Origin: an uncultured virus (IMG/VR IMGVR_UViG_2061766007_000697)
Lineage: Duplodnaviria > Heunggongvirae > Uroviricota > Caudoviricetes
Reading direction: 5' to 3' (one strand)
DNA length: 42,723 nucleotides
IMG/VR virus record: IMGVR_UViG_2061766007_000697
Shown: in pieces, positions 11,641-22,187 of the stretch
Layout of the letters: the number at the start of each line of letters is the position of its first letter
Position numbering within the stretch: position 1 is the first letter of the stretch
Made by a program: the position numbers and the translations under genes
Notes under the pieces: generated by a model
Databases searched by the model: none
Seen by the model: only the letters and a program-made list of their open reading frames with translations
What the model was told of the DNA's origin: nothing

Positions 11641-14600
11641 ATGAATGACCTCAATGTGAACCAGCAGCCTCAGACGACAGAGTCTGTTGANNNNNNNNNN
11701 NNNNNNNNNNNNNNNNNNNNNNNNNNNNNNNNNNNNNNNNNNNNNNNNNNNNNNNNNNNNNNNNNNNNNNNNNNTGCTTGCTACTTCAAAGAAATTACTT
11801 GGTATCTCTAAGCGCGAACAGGAACCAGATCCTAAGGACTCTCTTGCTTTTCAGCGTTTCTATGGCCCTGAGATGCTGTTCCAGGAGCGCATTCTTCGTG
11901 ATGGTGGTAAGCTTGCTCGTAACATCCTGTGGAAGGCGACTAATAGAGGCAATCTAGACTTCATGCCAGTTGGAGCCCTTGATAAGCATATCTCTTCTGT
12001 TTTCTATGATAGCAAGCTTGCACAGATGATGGATGGTTCTTCGCCACTTGAGACCATTGACTCTGCCTATAAGACTACACGAATTGGTGAAGGCGGTGTT
12101 GCATCACAGGATAGCGCACCAGATGAGATGCGTACTGTGCAGCCAAGCTATTTTGGTTTTATTGATCCTGTGAGATGCTTTGCCAAAGGCACAGAGATCA
12201 AGACAGAGTCTGGTTGGAAAGCTATTGAGGATCTCACAACAGAAGATAAGANNNNNNNNNNNNNNNNNNNNNNNNNNNNNNNNNNNNNNNNNNNNNNNNN
12301 NNNNNNNNNNNNNNNNNNNNTATGAGGATGATAATGTTGCTTTCTGTGTGACACCGCATCACAGGCTCTATATCAAAAAAGATGATGGTTGGGATATTGC
12401 TTTTGCTGAAGATGTCTATGGAACAGAGGTTATTATCAACCTTTCTGAGACAGATGAACAACTTTATAAGTTAGAAAAAAGATATTGGTATGAGCAAAAG
12501 AATGAAGACTTTGTTTATTGNNNNNNNNNNNNNNNNNNNNNNNNNNNNNNNNNNNNNNNNNNNNNNNNNNNNNNNNNNNNNNNNNNNNNNNNNNNNNNNN
12601 NNNNNNNNNNNNNNNNNNNNNNNNNNNNNNNNNNNNNNNNNNNNNNNNNNNNNNNNNNNNNNNNNNNNNNNNNNNNNNNNNNNNNNNNNNNNNNNNNNNN
12701 NNNNNNNNNNNNNNNNNNNNNNNNNNNNNNNNNNNNNNNNNNNNNNNNNNNCAGAAAGCACAGGTAACCAAAGACGGCTCTATCCCTGGTTCTACACAGA
12801 GCGGTCTTGCAGCTGTTTATCCAATCCGCACAACTGTTGCGAAATTCCCGCCTAAGCGTAACTGGTTCTATAAAATCGTCCTTAGATCTGGTCGCTCCTT
12901 GATTACATCTGCTGATCANNNNNNNNNNTCCCGCCTAAGCGTAACTGGTTCTATAAAATCGTCCTTAGATCCGGCCGCTCTCTGATCACATCTGCTGATC
13001 ACCGCTGGTCTGTTCTTCGCAATAACCGTTATAGACTTATTGATGCCAAGGATCTGAAGCCTGGTGATATGGCGCTGCGCTCTACTTTCAAGGATGTCAT
13101 TTCCAGACGCACCTTTGTCAATGGCATGCTGGTTAATAAGGATCTTGCCACCGTCTTCGGTTATATTGCCCGCTCCCTGTCGCAGCCTGACAGCTATAAG
13201 ATGCGCATTTCCATTCCAGAAGATCGCTATAATTTCGTCATGCAGCAGCTTGCACGCATCGGATTCACAGAAGGCTTCAATACCTATTATATGAATGTCG
13301 GCACTTTCTGCATCGGCATCCGTGATGAGAAGTTTAAGCTCTTCCTGAAAGAGTCTTTTGGCGCCACCGATAGAGAACGCAAGATCCCTGATTTCATTAT
13401 GTCTGCCAACGCTGCTATCGTTAGTGCCTTCCTTGATGGTTATACAAACGATCCTACTAAGGTTGGCCGTGACTCTGCAGACGACATCTGGATTCTTGAT
13501 ATACCGAACACTGCTGTGCGCGATTCGCTCGCTTTCCTTTTTGCCAGAATCGAAACAGACACCCTTTATAGAGATACCACAGTAGATGGTGAGATGGAAA
13601 TCGCAATGAAGCTGGTTCCTATGGATCCGCGCTACGGTGATATGATTCTGGATGAGATCAAGGTTATCAAGAAAGGCATCTCTGCGCCTATTATGGTGGA
13701 TATCGATGTCAACGATAATCTTTATGCTGTTGCCAATGGTATCGTGACGCACAACTCCAAGTACCCGCTGCAGGCTATCAGTGTTGAGAATCGTGAGGCG
13801 CCTCTTGTCCGTGGTCTTGATGAAGCCAGCGGCAAGGATATGCAGACGCTTATTGGCAAATATCTTGGTGCGCGGTTTGCTCCTCGTGACGGTGTTGTTA
13901 CCGCTGTCAGGAAGGATCGCATCGATGTCCGTTATGATGACGGCAGTAAAGGGAGCATTGATATGTATGTCAACTTCCCAATGAATGCCAAGGGCTATAT
14001 CAACAACACACCCAGAGTCAAAGCCGGACAAGCCTTTAAGAAGGGTGATTGTCTTGCTAGCAGCAATTATACAGACGATAAAGGTGTGGCCGCGCTTGGT
14101 ACGAATCTGCGGTCTGCTTGGATGTCTTGGAAAGGCGGTACATACGAAGATGCCATTGTTATCAGTGAGAGTGCTGCTAAGAAGCTGACCAGCACCACCA
14201 TGTATAAGACAGCCGTGGATCTGGATAAGACTGTAAAGCTTGGTAAGCAGAACTATATGACATGGAAGCCTGGTGAGTTCAGCAAAGAGCAGATGGAGAA
14301 TCTGGATGCTAACGGTATTGTGAAGCCTGGTACTATTCTGCATAAAGAAGATCCTATGATCCTGGCAGTGAGGATGACAGAGCCTTCGCCTGGTACACTG
14401 GGTAAGCGCATCTTGACCGATATGAGCGAGAGATGGGAACATGATCATCCTGGCGTGGTTACTGATGTTGTCAAGACCAGGAAGGGCATCAAAGTTTATG
14501 CAACTGTTACGGCACCTGCAGAGGTTGGTGACAAGCTGTCAGGGGGCTATGGTAACAAGGGTGAGATTTCTCAGATTCTTCCTGATGATGAGATGCCTAC

Positions 14601-17600
14601 AACGAAAAAAGGTGAGCCAATTGATATATTACTGAGCCCGCTTGGACTTATTTCGAGGACGAATAATTCGCAAATTTATGAGGGATTACTTGGTAAAGTT
14701 GCAGCCAAAACAGGCAAGACTATTACAGTCCCGCAGTTCTTCGATAGGCCTATTCCTGATTTCGTTGCGGAACAGCTCAAACAGAACCACATAGAACCTG
14801 ATGAGGATCTTGTTGATCCCTCGACAGGCAGGGTTATGCCTAATATAACCACAGGTATATCTTATATATACAAGCTGAAACACCTGGCTGAATCTAAGAT
14901 GTCGGCTCGCGGTACGTCGACATATGATGCTGAGGGTCTTCCTGGCGGTAAGGGCATGGACGGCTGCTTCCCAGGTCCGCAACTTGTTATGACCAGCGGA
15001 AGCTATAAGGCCATCAGCGCACTCGCATTCTCTAAGGACGTGAATCAGGTTGGTACTTGCACAGAGAAGGGCGAGTTCTGCTACTATCCTTCTATTGACT
15101 CGTTCAGAAAGCTTGTGCCGCCCAGCGATCTTATCAGCATTGTGCCTAAGTGGTCATTTGGTCCTAAAGGCTTCCTGGCACATACCATTATTCCAATGAC
15201 GCCTACTAAGAACCATGCCATCTATATGTATAATGGTATGATTCAGAAGCATGCTGGGGATATCAAGAGTGGAGATAAACTGGCGGGNNNNNNNNNNNNN
15301 NNNNNNNNTTACAGGTGCTCGCCAACTTGATATCTTCTACTGGCATGGTGGATGACGATAGGCTCACAGTTACGTATGATGACGATCATGCCGCGCTGGC
15401 TATATTCAAGTGTGGTATCCTTAAAGGGCTGCATGCTCACATCAATGAATATAGACACACTATTACTGTTCCTCACTATTCGCTCTACGAAGCTGCACTG
15501 CAGGAGCAGGATTTTGGTGAGCTATATAAGTGCTTACAGCTGTTGGATGGACATGGTGCTGATGATGATGCAGAAACTGTTGCCAAGTACATTCCTTGGT
15601 CTATTATCCCAGAGAGCAGAAGTGAGCTGAAAGCTGCTGTTAAGGCGCTGCAGGAGAAGGAACCTGTTAAAGAGATCGATACCAAGACGCACCTTGGGTT
15701 GATGCCTATTGTTGTGGACAAGATTGAACCTTATAAGACAGATAAAGAACTCGTGCGCGTATACGACCTTACTATCGATACTACGCATAGATATATTCTG
15801 TTTGGCGGCTATGTGGTCAGTAACTCTAAACGCTTTGGCACACTTGAACAGTCTGCCATGGCCGGACACAACGCCTTCGATATTATTAAGGACAGTAAGT
15901 ATATCCGTGGCCAGAGTAATTCGGATTTCTGGCGTAATCTTAGAACTGGTGACATTCCCACTATTCCTGGTGAGCCGCTTGTTCATAAGAAGTTCTTTGC
16001 GCATCTGACTGGTGCTGGTGTTAATGTTAAGAAGACTCCTCAGGGTGTGTCTATCTTTGCTCTGACCAATAAGGATGTGAACGAGCTGGCCGGTCCTCGT
16101 GAGGTCAAGAGCCGCGATACCTATGAGGCCAGAACTTTCAGACCGATTGATGATGGTTTGTTTGGGCAGAACGTATTTGGCATTAACGGCGATAAGTGGG
16201 GCTACATACAGTTGGACGAACCTGTGCCTAACCCTGTTATGGAAGAGCCGCTTGCTCGCCTGCTGAATATTCCTGAGAAGAAGTTCGCTGATGTTGCTTC
16301 TGGTAAGGAAGAGATCAATGGTATCAAGGGTGGCGCCTCTATGAAGGCTGCACTTGAGAAGATTGATCTTGGTGCCGAGAGTGCGAAGGCGTTGAATAAC
16401 TACAAGACCATGACTCCTAGCGGTAAGGATAAGGCGCTGAAGCGGTATGTGGCTATTGAACGCATGAGACGCGCTGGTGTTAAGCCTTCTGATTATATGC
16501 TGGACAAGATTCCTGTCATTCCTCCTATATATAGACCCATTACAAGCTATAACGGTCTTACAATGGTCGCTGATAGTAATTACCTTTATGCGCAGCTGCT
16601 GGATGCGAGAGATGACGCCAGAGAGTCCAAGAATCTGCCTCAGGAGTTCCAGGATCAGGCCAGAGAAAATATTTATACAAAGTGGAAAGAGTTGACCGGC
16701 CTTTATGCGCCCCAGGATGTTAAGCTTCAGAGCAAGCATGTTCAGGGGTTGCTCAAGTGGGCTCTTGGTGACAGTCCAAAATTCTCAGCGCTGCAGCGCA
16801 AGGTACTGAGTGCCACTGTTGATACTGTTGGCCGTGGTGTTGTGGTTCCCGATCCGAGGCTGCGAGTCAATGAGCTTGGTATACCAGAAGTAATGGCTTT
16901 CAATATCATGGGCCCGATTGTTGAGCGAAAGCTTGTCAAACAGGGCTACACACCTTTGCAGGCTATGGAGAAGGTGAAGAAGCAGGATATTCAGGCGAGA
17001 GATGCACTGAATGAAGTAATGCGCGACCATCCTGTGCTTATGAATCGTGCGCCTACCCTGCATAAGCTTGGTGTTATGGCATATAAGCCCAGACTGGTAG
17101 CAGGTCATGCGATTCATGTAAATCCTTCTACAGTAGTGCCATTCAATATGGACTTTGATGGCAATTGTTGTGATTATGATAGCAAGATTTTCTTGAAAAT
17201 ATCGAAATCTCAATACAATAAAGTTGATGTGAGTTATGTTAATTGTGTATCCGGAAACAACTATGAAAAGGAGACACAATCCATGAAACTTCCATTCGAC
17301 ACAAAAATCACTGCTCACGACATCGATGACAACGACTACGTTTGCATGAAGATTGGGGAATTTCCACGCATCGGTACACCTATCAAAGACAAGAATGGGG
17401 CAGACTGCTATGCCGTTCCTTCTGGCATTCAGGTTCTTTCCTGTGACCCAAAATCTGGTAAGGAATGCTGGCAGACTGTGAAGATGCTGACTGTCGAAAA
17501 TGACTGTGACACTGTAAAAGTTAAACTCGGCTCTAGAGAGCTTATTGTCTCTACCAACGAGTCCCTCGCTGTTTTCGACCACGAGACTGGTAATCTTAAA

Positions 17601-18899
17601 AAGGTTGCTCCAGATAAGGCAGGCATCTCTATGGTTCCTGTCTTTAAGAGGCAGCCTGCGCCGTTTGGTACTTATGGCGATCGTGATCTTGGGTGGATGA
17701 TGGGTGCATTTATCTCTGATGGCTGGAGAGCTGGTAATACTATCGGCTACGCCAAGCTTGAAGCCTCTAAGCGCGATGAGTTTGTTAGAATCATCAGAGC
17801 GCACCACGAGAACTTCACTGTCAAGATCTATGAAGAGAACGCCAATGTGCAGTCTGATTCCTACAAGCTTGGCAACTCTGTTAAGATTCATCTTAATAGC
17901 AGCACCCTTGTCGCCTGGTTCGATCAGTGGAGTTTTGTCAGCGATGACATCAAGGATAATCTTGATGGTAAGCGTACTGCCCTGTATAAGCAGGTTCCGC
18001 AGTATCTTATCGACTACGGCAGCGAAGACTTCCTCTGGGGACTCTTTAGCGGCTTGATTGATGGAGATGGTAGTATTGCTAAGAATATGGCTACTGGTAG
18101 GCCTCGTTGGTCTGTNNNNNNNNNNNNNNNNNNNNNNNNNNNNNNNNNNNNNNNNNNNNNNNNNNNNNNNNNNNNNNNNNNNNNNNNNNNNNNNNNNNNN
18201 NNNNNNNCCTCCACCATTGACATGTATCAGAATTTAGATAAGCTGACGTGCATCGGGGAACGGGAACAAGAGCTTATTACAGAGTGGACGTCTTGCGCGC
18301 CGTCTAGGGACACGTATGATGTTGTGCCGATAAGCCAGAATGAATATACAGCGCTTAAGTTGTTTGTGACACAGGATAGCGACAGCAGCCTGTATGCAGC
18401 AATCATGAGGACTAAGGGCACTGGCTGCAGGGCTAATCGCACGCTTTTGATGCGTCATGTCGAAGAGATCAAGGAATACATACCTTCGCTCTATGATCGC
18501 ATTATGGCTACAAATACTATCTGGGAAACTGTATCCAGTGTTGAGCCTGCTGGTAAACGCCAGGTGTTCGACTTCGAGGTTGAAGGCACTAAGGTCTTTG
18601 CTATCAACAACGGTGTTGTGATTTGGGACACAGTGAATATTCATGCCCCGGTCTCTGATGACGCGCGTAAGGAAGCGTATGCCAAGATGATGCCTGAACG
18701 CAATCTGATTGGTATGCGCTCGCGTGAGATCCTCTATAAGCCTGAAAAGGAATACCAGCAGGGTCTGTATATCGCCACTCGCATGAAGTCTGGTCCAGAT
18801 GTACGCACACACTACTTTAACACGTTGGAAGAAGCAAAGCAAGCTTATCGTGACGGCATTATCGACGTCGACGACCCCATTGTAATCAAATCAAAATAA
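11641..18899 (+). CDS. rpoBC: RNA polymerase beta(C-part)-beta'(N-part) fusion precursor containing four inteins
   Basis: AGGAG RBS. Beta motifs: SKLAQMMD..PL, GTYEDAIVISE, GDKLSGGYGNKG, SPLGLISRTN, YKLKHLAESKMSAR, KRFGTLE. Then, with no stop, beta' motifs: TFRPIDDGLF, IPVIPPIYRP, VDTVGRGVV, NRAPTLHKLG, NMDFDG. Frame breaks occur only at N gaps; continuity across those gaps is inferred. Confidence 0.9.
12176..12520 (+). mobile_element. intein 1 (mini-intein) in beta region D; C-terminus in gap
   Basis: FIDPVR|CFAKGTEIKTESGWKAIEDL (block A), VTPHHRLY (block B), FVYC (block F start); site equivalent to RpoB CPIE|TPEG. Confidence 0.85.
12752..13755 (+). mobile_element. intein 2 with degenerate LAGLIDADG-type endonuclease domain; N-terminus in gap
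   Basis: LITSADHRW (block B), IPDFIM...AFLDGY, VDIDVNDNLYAVANGIVTHN|S; C-extein SKYPLQA equivalent to RpoB RALMG|xNMQRQA. Confidence 0.85.
14965..15824 (+). mobile_element. intein 3 in the beta C-terminal GG-QRFGEME motif
   Basis: GKGMDG|CFPGPQLVMT, TPTKNHAIY (block B), VYDLTIDTTHRYILFGGYVVSN|SKRFG. Confidence 0.85.
17166..18629 (+). mobile_element. intein 4 (atypical, Asp-terminated) with LAGLIDADG homing endonuclease, in the beta' catalytic loop
   Basis: NMDFDGN|CCDYDSKI; WMMGAFISDG and LFSGLIDGDGS endonuclease motifs; VFDFEVEGTKVFAINNGVVIWD|TVNIHAP, after which beta' homology resumes. Confidence 0.85.
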
Positions 18900-18920: not shown

Positions 18921-19398
18921 ATGCACAACTTCGATAACGTCATGAAAGGTTTTAACAAGAGAGCCACAGCCGTGCTGANNNNNNNNNNNNNNNNNNNNNN
19001 NNNNNNNNNNNNNNNNNNNNNNNNNNNNNNNNNNNNNNNNNNNNNNNNNGGGAGGGGCGCCTGCTGGTGCTCCTCCGATGGGCCCCGCTGCCATGGGTGG
19101 TATGCCTCCTGCTGGTGGCGCACCAATGGATCCGGGTGCGATGGGCGGCGCTCCCGCAGCTCAGGGTTCAGGCGGGGGTGAAATTCCTCCTGAAATTCTT
19201 CAGGACCAGCTCTTTATGCAGTTCCTGCAGGCGATGGGTGTGATCTTTGACCAGCAGACGGGCACTTTCATGGATCCTAATGGACAACCCCTTAGCGTTG
19301 ATGAGGTTATGCAGATTTATGACATGTTTCAACAGCAAGTCGCGGCGCAACAGGGCGCTGCTCCTGAAGGAGGCACTGCGGGTGGCGAAGCCATGGGT
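18921..19398 (+). CDS. low-complexity Pro/Gly/Met/Ala-rich protein (3' end in gap)
   Basis: AGGAG RBS; MHNFDNVMKGFNKRAT joins the 19078 frame across a gap (MGGMPPAGGAPMDPG...). Confidence 0.6.
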
Positions 19399-19891
19399 NN
19401 NNNNNNNNNNNNNNNNNNNNNNNNNNNNNNNNNNNNNNNNNNNNNNNNNNNNNNNNNNNNNNNNNNNNNNNNNNNNNNNNNNNNNNNNNNNNNNNNNNNN
19501 NNNNNNNNNNNNNNNNNNNNNNNNNNNNNNNNNNNNNNNNNNNNNNNNNNNNNNNNNNNNNNNNNNNNNNNNNNNNNNNNNNNNNNNNNNNNNNNNNNNN
19601 NNNNNNNNNNNNNNNNNNNNNNNNNNNNNNNNNNNNNNNNNNNNNNNNNNNNNNNNNNNNNNNNNNNNNNNNNNNNNNNNNNNNNNNNNNNNNNNNNNNN
19701 NNNNNNNNNNNNNNNNNNNNNNNNNNNNNNNNNNNNNNNNNNNNNNNNNNNNNNNNNNNNNNNNNNNNNNNNNNNNNNNNNNNNNNNNNNNNNNNNNNNN
19801 NNNNNNNNNNNNNNNNNNNNNNNNNNNNNNNNNNNNNNNNNNNNNNNNNNNNNNNNNNNNNNNNNNGTTTTATTTGCAAGAAAGGCTAATC

Positions 19892-22187
19892 ATGCCTACT
19901 ACTCTGGGACGTGAGCTCGTTAGGGACAAGCTTCCCGATAAGTATAAGCCCTATGCGGATCAAGTTCTGACGAAGAAGGTCACCACAGCGTTGATGACCG
20001 AGATCGCCAAAGAAGACCCTGATGGATATATTGATGTCCTTCAGGGCCTGAACAATCTTGCTCAGACTGTTGTCTCCACCTATGGACGAGATGCTGCACT
20101 GCCTTTTCGTGATATGAAAATATCCAAAGGCATTCAGCAGCTTAAAGACAAGATGAAAGCTATTGTTGATAAGGTCCTGGATGACGACAGCCTGACACCG
20201 GCCCAGAAAGAAGAAAAGATCAAAGAGCTCGGCTACAAGTACACACAGAAAGTGGAAGACGCTGTATTCGACGATAATGATAAACGACACACAGCGCTTG
20301 CCTCGCAGATCAATTCAGGCTCACGTGGTAATAAGACGCAGCTTCGTCAGATGCTGTTTGGCAATATGCTGATGAAAGATGCGCTGAACCGTGACATGCC
20401 TTATCTTGGTTTGGATGCCTATGCCAATGGCGTGACACCGACTAATTACTGGGTATCAGCATCATCCGGTCGTAAAGGCTATTACGACGTTCAGATGGCA
20501 ACAGGTCAGTCTGGCTATCTAGGAAAACGAGTTACAGCTGCTACACATGATACTATCATAAGTGAGGATGATTGTGGGACTACTGATACTGGTGTTCCTT
20601 ATCCTGCTAATAGTGATAAAAACATAGGTGCTGTACTGCTGAAGCCGTTCCATAATCATCCAGCAGGCTCTATTGTGGATGCGAAGATGGTTGCAGAGGC
20701 AGACGATGACNNNNNNNNNNNNNNNNNNNNNNNNNNNNNNNNNNNNNCTTGTAAGAGCAAGAACGGTGTTTGCGCTAAATGCAACGGGCTAGGCGAGAAT
20801 GGCAAGTTTCCTGGAATCGGTGAGTATGTCTCACTGAATGCTGCTCGTTCGTTTGTTGAGCCTCTTACACAGGCGTCTATCGGTTGTCTGGCTGGTGATA
20901 CAATGGTGCGCATGTTTGATGGGCCGGCCAAGGCTATCAAGGNNNNNNNNNNNNNNNNNNNNNNNNNNNNNNNNNTAACACGCTTCTATAGCCACGGTAC
21001 AAAAGAGATGTATCGTTGGTCTTTCTCTAATGGTACTACACTGGATTGCACAGCCGACCATAAGATAATGTTTATAGAAGCCATGCTTGCTCTCTATTGC
21101 GGTGATGGCCAGCGTTATTACACCTATAGAGAAAGGCCAATCGGCGAGATCAATGCTATCGAGTATGGCGTGCCTGTGTTCGATGGCAATCATAAGGTTG
21201 CCGAGCATCTTATAGGTCCGACTAAGGAATATCTTGNNNNNNNNNNNNNNNNNNNNNNNNNNNNNGATAGATCATCCAAGCCATATGTTCCTTTTGAATA
21301 ATGGGCTTTGTGTGAGCAACTCCAAGCATTCTGGTGGTGTCGGTGGTAAGAAGGTTATAGATCCAGAGGGCGAAGATCAGCCAACTGGTTTCCGCAATAT
21401 AGAGCGTATGTTTACCACGCCATCTAACTTCCCTGGTGGAGCGGTGCTTACTCCTATTGATGGTACAGTGTCCTCTATCCAACCAGCAGCGCAGGGTGGT
21501 ACTTATGTTACAGTCGGCAATAAAACTCTCTATTGCAGTCCCTATAGAACAGTGACTGTGAAGAAGGGCGATAAGGTCTATGCCGGTGATATGCTGACAA
21601 ACGGCGTGCCTAACCCGATGGAGGTTGTGGCATTGAAGGGTCTTGGTGCAGGTCGCATCTATTTCATGAATAAGATGAATGACATCCTTAAGAAGAGCGG
21701 AGCAGGTACAGCCAGACGCAATCTTGAATCCTTCACCCGCGCCTTCCTTAATAAAGTAGAGATCACTAATCCGGATGGCTATGAAGATTATCTGCCAGGT
21801 GACATTGTCAATTACAGCAATATCATGGCGGATTATGAGCCACGTGAAGATTCACAGTCCCTTGCTCCCGATAAAGCCATTAACCAGTACCTTGAGAAGC
21901 CTGTCCTATATTATACAATAGGAACACGCATTACTCCAGAAGTCGCTTCTACACTAAAGAAATATAAATTCAATGATGTACTGGTAAACAAGAATGAGCC
22001 CTCGTTTGCTGCTCGCTTTATGCGCCCCGCCGAGGGCTTGCAGCACGATAAAAACTGGTTGCCTCGTCTGTCTGGTGAGCGCCTTAAAGAAGGGTTGTTT
22101 GATGCAGCTCGTCAGGGAATAACCGATTCTTATGATTCCCCGAGCTATGTTGATAAGATCATCATCAACCCAATAAAGCCTAATTGA
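19892..22187 (+). CDS. rpoC: RNA polymerase beta' subunit, C-terminal fragment with one intein
   Basis: MPTTLGR (TTVGR), INSGSRGN, bridge helix GRKGYYDVQMATGQSGYLGKR, EDDCGT, C...GVCAKCNG Zn site, trigger loop EPLTQASIG|SKHSGG, NWLPRLSGE; joins across the gap at 21237. Confidence 0.9.
20885..21320 (+). mobile_element. intein 5 (mini-intein) in the beta' trigger loop
   Basis: QASIG|CLAGDTMVRMFDG, LDCTADHKI (block B), IDHPSHMFLLNNGLCVSN|SKH. Confidence 0.85.

What the first reader, a model, noticed from the sequence alone, without database searches (positions are those of the whole stretch)
17145..18650. Catalytic-loop intein with apparently swapped Asn/Asp junctions: DFDGN|C...WD|T
Seen: the universal NADFDGD motif reads NMDFDGN, followed by intein block A (CCDYDSKI). 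The intein ends GVVIWD before Thr rather than HN, and its block B reads IVSTNESL with no TxxH His. Known: all three Asp of DFDGD coordinate catalytic Mg2+, and Asp-terminated inteins are rare. Other catalytic residues are intact (beta ED, both Lys of GDK..GNKG, SRxN, KLxH, trigger-loop His), so the enzyme looks functional. Inference: canonical splicing would yield DFDGN-T, whereas excising N...W restores a perfect DFDGD-TVNIH. Options are a non-canonical splicing or deamidation chemistry that builds the third catalytic Asp, a polymerase tolerating DFDGN, or an inactive allele.
Basis: partly seen in the sequence, partly recalled or inferred. Interest (0 to 1): 0.95.

Follow-up and report, generated by a model that had tools for sequence, protein, structure and literature searches.

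The report
Intein that replaces RNA polymerase's catalytic aspartate
A self-removing protein insert (intein) sits in the magnesium-binding loop of a rumen phage's RNA polymerase, and wherever this kind of intein occurs the gene encodes asparagine in place of the third "universal" catalytic aspartate, so either the enzyme works without that aspartate or the splicing reaction makes it.

Summary
The beta'-like gene reads DFDGN|C...IWD|T (AAT 17163-17165, TGT 17166, GAC 18627-18629, ACA 18630), and block B reads S-T-N-E-S-L with Glu where the conserved His belongs.

It is not an error or a one-off. The same junction occurs in 5 diverged intein lineages among related phage contigs. It also occurs in 98 of 100 junction-readable representatives of a large intein family.

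All 42 intein-free relatives in the metagenome scan read D at that position.

All 103 Asn(-1) inteins form one clade (support 0.965). Block B Asn-Glu goes with it: B:9 is Asn in 98 of 98 representatives, B:10 is Glu in 87. Relatives with Asp(-1) keep block B Asp-His. The terminal Asp is shared by both groups, so it does not co-vary.

Nucleophiles are conserved at positions 1 and +1, which fixes the canonical junctions. The "excise N...W" reading is therefore not supported. Exteins and intein are under strong purifying selection (dN/dS about 0.07-0.11), so "inactive allele" is rejected.

Most likely the spliced polymerase carries DFDGN and works. Archaeal PolD offers a precedent: NCDGD with an intein after the Asn. 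Conversion of Asn to Asp is not excluded.

The parts
15315..18899 (+). ORF holding the end of a beta-subunit intein, the beta C-terminus fused to the beta' N-terminal half, the catalytic-loop intein and the C-extein
   Evidence: PF00623 E 8e-21, PF04997, PF14890. Relatives carry one open frame of 1586 to 2478 aa here.
17151..17165 (+). Metal-A loop D-F-D-G-N. The last codon, AAT (17163-17165), is Asn at extein position -1 where intein-free alleles encode the third catalytic Asp.
   Evidence: All 42 intein-free alleles of the metagenome scan have GAY here.
17166..18629 (+). LAGLIDADG intein of the Asn(-1)/block-B Asn-Glu clade. It reads 488 aa as printed, versus about 500 aa in relatives because of the N mask.
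   Evidence: Pfam LAGLIDADG_3 and Intein_splicing on relatives. AF2 model of the L017 copy has pLDDT 74.9; Foldseek gives 7qss TliVMA intein at E 2.3e-17.
17166..17168 (+). Cys1 (TGT), the N-terminal nucleophile, start of block A (CCDYDSKIFL)
   Evidence: Cys at this position in 98 of 98 Asn(-1) family members.
17550..17567 (+). Block B, S-T-N-E-S-L: B:7 Ser, B:9 Asn, and B:10 Glu (17559-17561) in place of the conserved His
   Evidence: Among 100 members, B:9 is Asn in 98. B:10 is Glu 87, Asp 5, Ala 3, Pro 2, Gln 1, His 2.
17688..17726 (+). First LAGLIDADG motif (LGWMMGAFISDGW) of the homing endonuclease domain
18033..18074 (+). Second LAGLIDADG motif (LWGLFSGLIDGDGS)
18116..18207 (.). Run of N (masked) inside the endonuclease domain; it does not keep the true length
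   Evidence: An X4 contig has 130 letters where the window has 94. Relatives are 12 aa longer here.
18570..18572 (+). Block F position 4, Asp (in RQVFDFEV)
   Evidence: Aligned to DnaB mini-intein block F. Asp in 100 of 100 members.
18624..18629 (+). Intein C-terminus Trp-Asp (TGG GAC) in place of His-Asn
   Evidence: Family ends: YD 77, WD 40, FD 9 of the 137 C-junctions read. GAC is unchanged in X3 and X4 contigs.
18630..18899 (+). C-extein beginning with Thr+1 (ACA): TVNIHAPVSD..., the end of the beta' N-terminal gene
   Evidence: Thr or Ser at +1 in all 100 members with both junctions read.

Best explanation
Positions 17166-18629 encode a genuine, mobile LAGLIDADG intein. It sits in the Mg-A loop of the beta'-like subunit of a large rumen phage's multisubunit RNA polymerase. 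That subunit was the only beta' found in four near-complete relatives.

The intein belongs to a large clade with a single origin. The clade is defined by Cys1, block B Ser-x-Asn-Glu (no His), block F Asp, an aromatic-Asp C-terminus and Thr/Ser at +1. It also has an obligatory Asn at extein position -1, the codon that encodes the third catalytic Asp in every intein-free allele.

Inferred mechanism:
- It splices at the canonical junctions (N|C and D|T) by class-1-type chemistry.
- Cys1 forms the thioester, Thr+1 takes over the N-extein, the terminal Asp cyclises to free the intein, and an O-to-N shift follows.
- The Asn(-1) side chain, together with block-B Asn/Glu, is part of the apparatus that activates the N-terminal junction in the absence of the block-B His. 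That is why Asn travels with the intein and never reverts.

The ligated beta' then reads DFDGN-TVNIH, and the polymerase works with the Asn carbonyl oxygen as the third Mg-A ligand.

Shown: the anatomy, the covariation, the single origin, the mobility and the purifying selection. Inferred: that it splices, the roles of Asn(-1) and Glu, and that a DFDGN enzyme is active.
For: 1. Intein identity.
- The fold of the L017 copy matches endonuclease-bearing inteins: 7qss E 2.3e-17, also 1dq3 and 1vde.
- Blocks F/G align to DnaB mini-inteins.
- LAGLIDADG_3 is present.
- Presence and absence alternate among close relatives.

2. Canonical junctions.
- Among the 98 Asn(-1) representatives, position 1 is Cys in all. 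Among all 100, +1 is Thr or Ser.
- In intein-free alleles +1 varies (T, Q, A, M, N).

3. Asn(-1) is tied to the intein type.
- 98 N|C against 2 D|S among 100 representatives.
- The two D|S members, the QD-type inteins, L286 and L287 all have block B D-H.
- All 103 Asn(-1) inteins form one clade (support 0.965) with none of the 10 Asp(-1) inteins inside.
- Both Asn codons occur.

4. Asn arrives with the intein in unadapted polymerases.
- Each type-C allele's nearest extein relative is intein-free or carries a QD-type intein.
- L043 (N-1) and L044 (D-1) exteins are mostly 94-99% identical in DNA, one bin 87%.
- Between L037 and L043, intein dS is 0.069 against extein dS 0.323.

5. The genes are under selection.
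- dN/dS is 0.071 (N-extein), 0.109 (intein) and 0.071 (C-extein) for window versus L017, and 0.069/0.075/0.047 for L037 versus L043.
- There is one beta' locus in each of 4 records that are 93-100% complete.
- A 290-aa endonuclease-less derivative (L289) keeps N|C, SMNESL and VVWD|T inside a 2437-aa open frame.

6. Precedents in print.
- PolD's acidic motif NCDGD aligns with DFDGD. About half of PolD genes carry an intein between N962 and C963, and N962D still gives full-length products (PMC7708050, passages).
- The third Asp ligates only Mg-A (PMC13198411, passages).
- A (-1) extein side chain can compensate for the block-B His (PMC6333167, abstract).
- Asp, Gln or Glu can cyclise in step 3 (PMC4031507, passages).
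Against: - No experiment shows splicing, or which residue stands at the ligated junction.
- The NADFDGD triad is called universally conserved (PMC13198411). None of the 42 intein-free relatives has Asn there. So DFDGN is clearly disfavoured when no intein is present.
- The PolD precedent concerns the first triad position of a DNA polymerase, not the third position of an RNA polymerase.
- From memory, not checked here: Ala substitutions of single triad aspartates in E. coli RNA polymerase abolish nearly all activity.
- Because the Asn(-1) clade arose once, the covariation with block B is a single evolutionary event, not many independent ones.
- In the window itself the beta gene's second intein (14965-15824) is 860 nt long, so the frame is broken. 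This lies at an N mask and could be an artefact, but I cannot show that the window's own polymerase gene is intact.
- PF00623 might miss a very divergent second polymerase.
Confidence: 0.5

Rival explanations
1. Splicing-linked or post-splicing conversion of Asn(-1) to Asp. The gene encodes Asn because this intein needs it, but the mature enzyme regains DFDGD. Possible routes are attack on the Asn side-chain amide with loss of ammonia during the branched-intermediate stage, transfer of the amide nitrogen to the intein's C-terminal carbonyl, or metal-assisted deamidation in the assembled active site.
For: - The triad is universally conserved, and all 42 intein-free relatives keep Asp. Yet 103 Asn(-1) alleles persist without one reversion.
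- These alleles sit in exteins mostly 94-99% identical to Asp-bearing ones.
- A conserved carboxylate (block-B Glu, 87 of 98) and an invariant block-B Asn sit where the -1 residue is handled.
- The intein lacks its own terminal Asn, so Asn(-1) is the only amide near the junctions.
- From memory, not checked here: Glu-assisted attack on Asn/Gln side-chain amides is known from pilin isopeptide bonds and Thr-Gln ester cross-links.
Against: - No known intein does this, and I could not write a route that is simpler than canonical splicing.
- Relatives with Asp at both -1 and the intein end (QD type, P0143/P0144, L286, L287) must use plain Asp cyclisation, so parsimony extends that to this clade.
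- From memory: spontaneous Asn-Thr deamidation is slow and would give mostly isoAsp.
- Block-B position 10 is Ala, Pro or Gln in 6 of 98 members, so the Glu is not indispensable.
Confidence: 0.2
2. The mature enzyme has DFDGN and is substantially impaired. The allele is a cost imposed by a selfish element and persists because the homing endonuclease converts Asp-bearing intein-free alleles during co-infection.
For: - The LAGLIDADG domain is intact and under purifying selection (intein dN/dS 0.075-0.109).
- The intein has been exchanged between backgrounds recently: intein dS 0.069 against extein dS 0.323, and a patchy distribution on the extein tree.
- Intein-free alleles never show Asn.
Against: - The clade is very old and diverse: 166 representatives at E<=1e-30, each standing for a 50%-identity cluster.
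- An endonuclease-less 290-aa derivative still keeps Asn(-1) in an open 2437-aa polymerase frame.
- The polymerase is the only one detected in near-complete genomes, so a heavy defect should be strongly counter-selected.
Confidence: 0.15
3. Register-shifted excision, the first reader's 'swap'. The element removed is N-C...I-W, joining Gly to the Asp now counted as the intein's last residue and giving DFDGD-T directly.
For: - At the DNA level the intein-bearing allele equals an intein-free allele plus a pure insertion of [AAY TGY ... TGG] between the Gly and Asp codons.
- MAFFT places the gap that way.
Against: - It would need cleavage at Gly|Asn and Trp|Asp with no nucleophile at either new position 1 (Asn) or +1 (Asp).
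- The conserved nucleophiles lie one residue further on at both ends: Cys 98 of 98 Asn(-1) representatives, Thr/Ser 100 of 100.
- In relatives with D|S/T/C...QD|T or ...WD|T, the same shift would delete nothing useful.
- Block G aligns Trp-Asp with His-Asn of DnaB inteins.
Confidence: 0.03
4. Non-splicing or dead allele. The intein is degenerate (no block-B His, no penultimate His, no terminal Asn) and the polymerase gene is a pseudogene or dispensable.
For: - Three of the most conserved intein residues are missing.
- In the window the beta gene's frame is broken at 15288-15330.
Against: - dN/dS is about 0.07 for the exteins and 0.08-0.11 for the intein.
- Relatives have open frames of 2102-2478 aa through the whole fused gene.
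- The same 'defects' are conserved in about 100 diverged representatives.
- Only one beta' locus is present per near-complete genome.
- The frame break lies at an N mask, and masks are shown not to keep length.
Confidence: 0.05

Closest known systems
PolII (PolD DP2) inteins of Pyrococcus/Thermococcus, inserted in the catalytic acidic motif N962|C963-D-G-D of the two-barrel DNA polymerase D (PMC7708050, PMC4996933 and PMC8175363, passages read)
   Same: - An intein in the metal-binding loop of a two-barrel polymerase.
- It sits directly after an Asn that occupies a position of the RNA polymerase Asp triad.
- It has Cys1 and a non-Asn C-terminal residue.
- The Asn stays in the active mature enzyme.
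   Different: - In PolD the Asn is the first triad position, and it is also the norm in intein-free PolD genes.
- The PolD inteins end in Gln with Cys at +1. By recall, not by the passages I read, they also keep the block-B His.
- Here the Asn is the third position of an RNA polymerase, it appears only with the intein, and the intein lacks the His and ends in Asp with Thr at +1.
- I did not test sequence relatedness between the two intein groups.
Inteins with C-terminal Asp or Gln. The review PMC4031507 (passages read) names the Gln cases: CIV RNR and the Pab and Mma PolII inteins.
   Same: The terminal Asn is replaced by a residue that can still cyclise in step 3.
   Different: - Those are isolated cases with ordinary flanks.
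- Here Asp is the rule of a large family.
- It is combined with the loss of both catalytic histidines and with a fixed extein Asn.
Inteins lacking the block-B His: Tko CDC21-1 orthologues (PMC4031507, PMC6333167), and the engineered Ssp DnaB M86 H73A rescued by bulky (-1) residues (PMC6333167 abstract)
   Same: - Block-B position 10 is not His.
- An extein (-1) residue is implicated in making the N-terminal junction reactive.
   Different: - Tko CDC21-1 is described as using a compensating intein residue and carries Leu at -1.
- Here the replacement is Glu with an invariant neighbouring Asn.
- The (-1) residue is Asn, at the expense of a catalytic residue of the host enzyme.
Sister inteins at the same site that keep Asp(-1): the QD type (L012, L013, L031, L036 groups), P0143/P0144, L286 and L287
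   Same: - Same insertion point.
- Same architecture: Hint plus LAGLIDADG_3.
- Same terminal Asp and Thr+1.
- The block B frame S-x-x-x-S-L is the same.
   Different: - They have block B Asp-His.
- Residue 1 is Ser, Thr or Cys.
- Asp at -1 means canonical splicing restores DFDGD.

Membership tests
Intein (class 1, endonuclease-bearing) | Hint fold with an inserted LAGLIDADG endonuclease domain | tested here: met
   The AF2 model of the L017 copy has pLDDT 74.9 and pTM 0.77. Foldseek gives 7qss TliVMA intein at E 2.3e-17, then PI-PfuI and PI-SceI. Pfam LAGLIDADG_3 matches at E 4e-8; Intein_splicing matches below its cut-off.
Intein (class 1, endonuclease-bearing) | Cys/Ser/Thr at intein position 1 and at extein +1 | tested here: met
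   Cys1 (17166) and Thr+1 (18630) in the window. Among family representatives, Cys at 1 in 98 of 98 Asn(-1) members and Thr/Ser at +1 in 100 of 100.
Intein (class 1, endonuclease-bearing) | Block B Thr-x-x-His (His B:10) | tested here: not met
   The window has S-T-N-E. B:10 is Glu in 87 of 100 members and His only in the two Asp(-1) members.
Intein (class 1, endonuclease-bearing) | C-terminal His-Asn | tested here: not met
   The window ends Trp-Asp. G:7 is Asp in 99 of 100 members; G:6 is Tyr, Trp or Phe in 96 of 100.
Intein (class 1, endonuclease-bearing) | In-frame insertion at a conserved host site, with intein-free alleles in relatives | tested here: met
   42 intein-free alleles, and nearest neighbours differ in presence or absence.
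Intein (class 1, endonuclease-bearing) | Autocatalytic excision with extein ligation | not testable with these tools
   Only inferred, from purifying selection and open frames.
Class 3 inteins | No N-terminal nucleophile, and Cys at block F position 4 (WCT triplet) | tested here: not met
   Position 1 is Cys. F:4 is Asp in 100 of 100 members.
Asp-terminated inteins | The last intein residue is Asp, followed by a nucleophile | tested here: met
   GAC 18627-18629 followed by ACA. The codon is unchanged in two independent runs.
Multisubunit RNA polymerase beta' (host protein) | NADFDGD metal-A loop with three Asp | tested here: not met
   As encoded the loop reads NMDFDGN. Canonical ligation gives DFDGN-T. 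Intein-free relatives meet the feature, 42 of 42.
Multisubunit RNA polymerase beta' (host protein) | Rpb1 domains 1, 2 and 5, with the beta partner encoded alongside | tested here: met
   PF00623 E 8e-21, PF04997 E 2.3e-5 (below its curated cut-off), PF04998, and PF00562 E 5.5e-54.
PolD PolII inteins | Homology to the Pab/Pho PolII mini-inteins | not tested
   Only the analogy of position and flank was taken from papers.

The most novel reading that the evidence does not exclude
Protein splicing in this clade does more than remove the insert: it turns the encoded Asn(-1) into the third catalytic Asp of RNA polymerase. For example, the Asn amide nitrogen could be used as the leaving or attacking group that a canonical intein takes from its own terminal Asn. 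The excised intein would then carry the nitrogen away, and the active site would be completed only by splicing. This would be a new chemical class of intein and a built-in zymogen switch for a polymerase.
Probability: 0.17. Interest if true: 0.95.

Novelty: new variant of a known kind. Interest (0 to 1): 0.8.

Why it matters
The three aspartates of NADFDGD are among the most invariant residues in biology. Here a large, old and mobile intein clade forces the third one to be encoded as asparagine. It does so in the only polymerase found in four near-complete relatives, across backgrounds that are otherwise mostly 94-99% identical to Asp-encoding ones.

Either outcome is informative, and one mass-spectrometry experiment on the spliced junction peptide decides between them:
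- If the mature enzyme keeps Asn, a multisubunit RNA polymerase can run on a D-D-N triad. That changes what is considered essential for Mg-A binding, and it parallels PolD's N-D-D.
- If it does not, inteins can rewrite a flanking residue, which is new protein chemistry.

The family is also a natural example of an extein residue recruited into intein catalysis, at the host enzyme's expense. It offers histidine-free, Asp-terminated splicing domains for engineering.

Tried and rejected
- Megablast of the gene against the phage collection gave no match.
- No whole genome is held for the window.
- A viral scan with the window intein's N-part as a single sequence found no relative. The extein alignment scans found them instead.
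- The pattern ADFDGN+C in bacterial and archaeal genomes gave 124 matches in 122 loci. None is in a polymerase context, so all look like chance. This says nothing about cellular polymerases.
- Idea rejected: 'Asn(-1) is needed because a Cys1 thioester cannot coexist with Asp(-1)'. L286 and L287 are inteins at this site with Asp(-1) and Cys1, both with block B Asp-His. The coupling is therefore with block B, not with Cys as such.
- Literature searches that gave nothing usable. 'DFDGN' found 3 unrelated papers. D464N/D485N and similar terms found nothing on RNA polymerase. Intein plus DFDGD found only the PolD papers and one unrelated review. Intein with catalytic aspartate and RNA polymerase found nothing on this family.
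- Minteer et al. 2017 (Asp(-1) cyclisation) is not held. I saw only its title, in a reference list.
- The look-up of sequencing runs listed no RNA holder, so the RNA-editing idea (AAY read as GAY) could not be tested.
- Read laying found no independent near-identical contig over 17163-17165, and X1 laid nothing.
- A PHROGs scan of 28 neighbouring ORFs named nothing beyond the beta' C-part.
- The structure model gives no coordinates, so I could not measure the distance between Asn(-1) and block-B Glu.
- The regex labelling mis-assigned block B for two N|C members. The hmmalign columns are the ones I use.

Full report
**What is in the window**

The window is phage-like, with nearly all long ORFs on the + strand. 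It encodes a multisubunit RNA polymerase.
- ORF 12916/13069-15330 is beta-like (PF00562, E 5.5e-54).
- ORF 15315-18899 carries the beta C-terminus fused to the beta' N-terminal half (PF00623, E 8e-21).
- ORF 19247-21301 carries beta' domain 5.

In ORF 15315-18899 the metal-binding loop reads VVPFNMDFDGN. It is followed by CCDYDSKIFLK..., and 488 residues later by ...VFAINNGVVIWD and then TVNIHAPVSD. The codons are AAT 17163-17165, TGT 17166-17168, GAC 18627-18629 and ACA 18630-18632. Block B reads S-T-N-E-S-L (17550-17567).

**It is a real intein**
- The C-terminal part aligns to blocks F and G of DnaB mini-inteins. Trp-Asp falls on His-Asn, and the Asp of VFDF falls on block F position 4.
- Relatives' copies hit LAGLIDADG_3.
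- An AlphaFold model of the L017 copy (pLDDT 74.9, pTM 0.77) matches endonuclease-bearing inteins: 7qss TliVMA at E 2.3e-17, PI-PfuI and PI-SceI.

**Relatives with and without the intein**

Scans with the N-extein found 5, then 9, viral loci and 79 metagenome loci.

Of the 79 metagenome loci, 7 do not reach the motif and L093 shows only its C junction. The rest divide as follows:
- 42 are intein-free, and all 42 have Asp at the third position (DFDGD, DYDGD, DFDSD or DLDGD, followed by T, Q, A, M or N).
- 5 carry the window's kind of intein, all DFDGN|C...IWD|T.
- 20 carry a second kind, D(F/Y/H)DGD|S or T; the 14 that reach their C-terminus end ...VVQD|T or ...IVQD|T.
- 4 carry inteins with an ordinary Asn end: L060, L067 and L082/L083.

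Counting the viral loci, the window's kind forms five lineages with 45-68% intein identity: the window, L017, L004=L026, L011, and L035/37/43. They use both Asn codons, AAT and AAC.

**A very large family**

I searched a profile of four such inteins against 1.84 billion cluster representatives. It gave 857 hits at E<=1e-3 and 166 at E<=1e-30. Among the best 150, both junctions could be read in 100:
- 98 are D-x-D-G-N|C and 2 are DFDGD|S.
- The loop motifs are DFDGN 68, DYDGN 13, DHDGN 12, with a few others.
- The intein ends are Tyr-Asp, Trp-Asp or Phe-Asp, before Thr or, rarely, Ser.

Aligned to the profile:
- Block F position 4 is Asp in 100 of 100.
- The last residue is Asp in 99 of 100.
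- Block B position 9 is Asn in 98.
- Block B position 10 is Glu in 87, Asp in 5, Ala in 3, Pro in 2 and Gln in 1.
- The only two His at position 10, and the only two Asp at position 9, belong to the two DFDGD|S members.

**What co-varies and what does not**

The second (QD) kind also has block B S-E-D-H-S-L. I looked for Asp followed by Cys in viral contigs. That found two inteins at this site with Asp(-1) and Cys1, L286 and L287. Both have block B S-E-D-H-S and end in Trp-Asp or Gln-Asp.

So Asn(-1) goes with block B Asn-Glu, and Asp(-1) goes with block B Asp-His. The terminal Asp is common to both. Cys1 is not by itself incompatible with Asp(-1).

In a tree of 113 inteins rooted on the Asn-ending L060/L067, all 103 Asn(-1) tips form one clade with support 0.965, and none of the 10 Asp(-1) tips lies inside it. 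The change therefore happened once. It has never been reversed since, although a single transition would restore the catalytic Asp.

**The Asn travels with the intein**

On the extein tree, each Asn(-1) allele's nearest neighbour is intein-free or carries the QD intein.

In the TAG-recoded gut clade, exteins of L043 (Asn) and L044 (Asp, QD intein) are mostly 94-99% identical in DNA, with one 150-nt bin at 87%. L037 against L036/L038 is 86-100% identical.

Between L037 and L043, intein dS is 0.069 while N-extein dS is 0.323. That indicates recent transfer of the intein. The polymerase background is thus not specially adapted to Asn.

**The genes are functional**
- dN/dS between Asn(-1) alleles is 0.071, 0.109 and 0.071 (N-extein, intein, C-extein) for window versus L017. 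It is 0.069, 0.075 and 0.047 for L037 versus L043.
- In four records that are 93-100% complete, PF00623 finds a single beta' locus, inside open frames of 1586-2478 aa in the three read with the standard code.
- One relative (L289) carries a 290-aa derivative with no LAGLIDADG hit. It keeps N|C, SMNESL and VVWD|T in a 2437-aa open frame. So the arrangement outlives the homing drive in at least one lineage.

**Reading**

The junctions are canonical. The conserved nucleophiles are at position 1 and at +1, and +1 is free to vary only in intein-free alleles. Excising N...W would need cleavage at bonds with no nucleophile, and the Asp(-1) relatives have no use for it.

The simplest account is class-1-type splicing with cyclisation of the terminal Asp. 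The review PMC4031507 allows this for Asp, Gln and Glu. In this account Asn(-1) and block-B Asn/Glu replace the missing His in activating the N-terminal junction. A direct catalytic role of a (-1) extein residue that compensates for the block-B His has been shown in an engineered DnaB intein (PMC6333167 abstract).

The product is then DFDGN-T. That this can be an active enzyme is made plausible by two points:
- The third Asp ligates only Mg-A, not Mg-B (PMC13198411).
- In archaeal PolD the homologous loop reads NCDGD. About half of the genes carry an intein between that Asn and the Cys, and N962D is also active (PMC7708050).

It remains surprising, because no intein-free relative carries Asn.

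**Open alternative**

Conversion of Asn to Asp during or after splicing is not excluded, and nothing I could compute tests it. I give it about one chance in five or six.

**Caveats**
- The window contains N masks that do not preserve length.
- The second beta intein (14965-15824) is 860 nt long, so the frame breaks at the mask 15288-15308. In L015 the same intein is continuous. I cannot show that the window's own gene is intact.
- The covariation is a single event on the tree.
- Only 150 of the 857 hits could be inspected.
- No supplements were consulted.

**Earlier notes of this scan**

Two earlier notes describe the Trp-Asp family (e1-5768046) and the Gln-Asp family (e1-5831661) on other DNA. 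They describe the insert as lying after 'DFDGD' or 'NADYDGD'.

**In print**

I found no paper in the held library that links inteins with the RNA polymerase DFDGD loop.

Noticed in passing
window 12176-13755, 14965-15824, 20885 onward: The polymerase genes hold at least three more inteins.
- One in beta at GFIDPVR|CFAKG...GIVTHN|SKYPLQ.
- One in beta at GKGMDG|CFPG...YVVSN|SKRFGTLE, with a penultimate Ser.
- One in the beta' trigger-loop region at PLTQASIG|CLAGDTMV.
Only the catalytic-loop intein has the Asp end.
   Followed up: partly
window 15288-15330: The frame changes inside the second beta intein, next to a 21-N mask: the intein is 860 nt, not a multiple of 3. The same intein is continuous in L015 (293 aa). 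The cause could be a mask artefact, a real frameshift or a split intein.
   Followed up: partly
window 18116-18207, and other N runs between 11375 and 21265: N masks do not keep the true length. An independent contig has 130 letters where the window has 94, which matches the 12 residues missing relative to relatives.
   Followed up: yes
window 15315-18899; L094-L101: The beta C-terminus and the beta' N-terminal half are fused in one reading frame, and beta' is split into two genes. Relatives show single open frames of 1586-2478 aa.
   Followed up: no
L060:3001-5133: A distant relative reads NADFNGD|S...THN|T. The second catalytic Asp is encoded as Asn, next to an otherwise canonical Ser1/His-Asn intein. 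It is a single contig, so an error is not excluded.
   Followed up: no
L082/L083:2316-4304; L093: An intein at the same site begins with Leu (DFDGD|LVDNQVV...) and ends Ser-Asn|Thr, with block F Asp. It has no N-terminal nucleophile, yet it is not class 3 by the block F test.
   Followed up: no
L226, L231, L236, L241, L243, L244, L246, L253: In another phage polymerase group the frame runs ADFDGD-CQWGHVF and then into stop codons. This suggests a non-intein insert, perhaps an intron, at the same spot.
   Followed up: no
L012, L013, L033-L054: Relatives from gut metagenomes use in-frame TAG codons inside the polymerase and the inteins. TAG read as Gln fits the alignment. In genome size (164-192 kb), intein density and recoding they resemble the Zeta group of crAss-like phages in PMC7886860. 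Membership was not tested.
   Followed up: partly
L043 vs L044/L047; L037 vs L036/L038: Nearly identical polymerase genes carry different inteins at the same site: the Asn(-1) type against the Gln-Asp type. This means one intein has been replaced by another.
   Followed up: partly
L289:3056-3925 (- strand): A 290-aa endonuclease-less mini-version of the Asn(-1) intein.
   Followed up: yes
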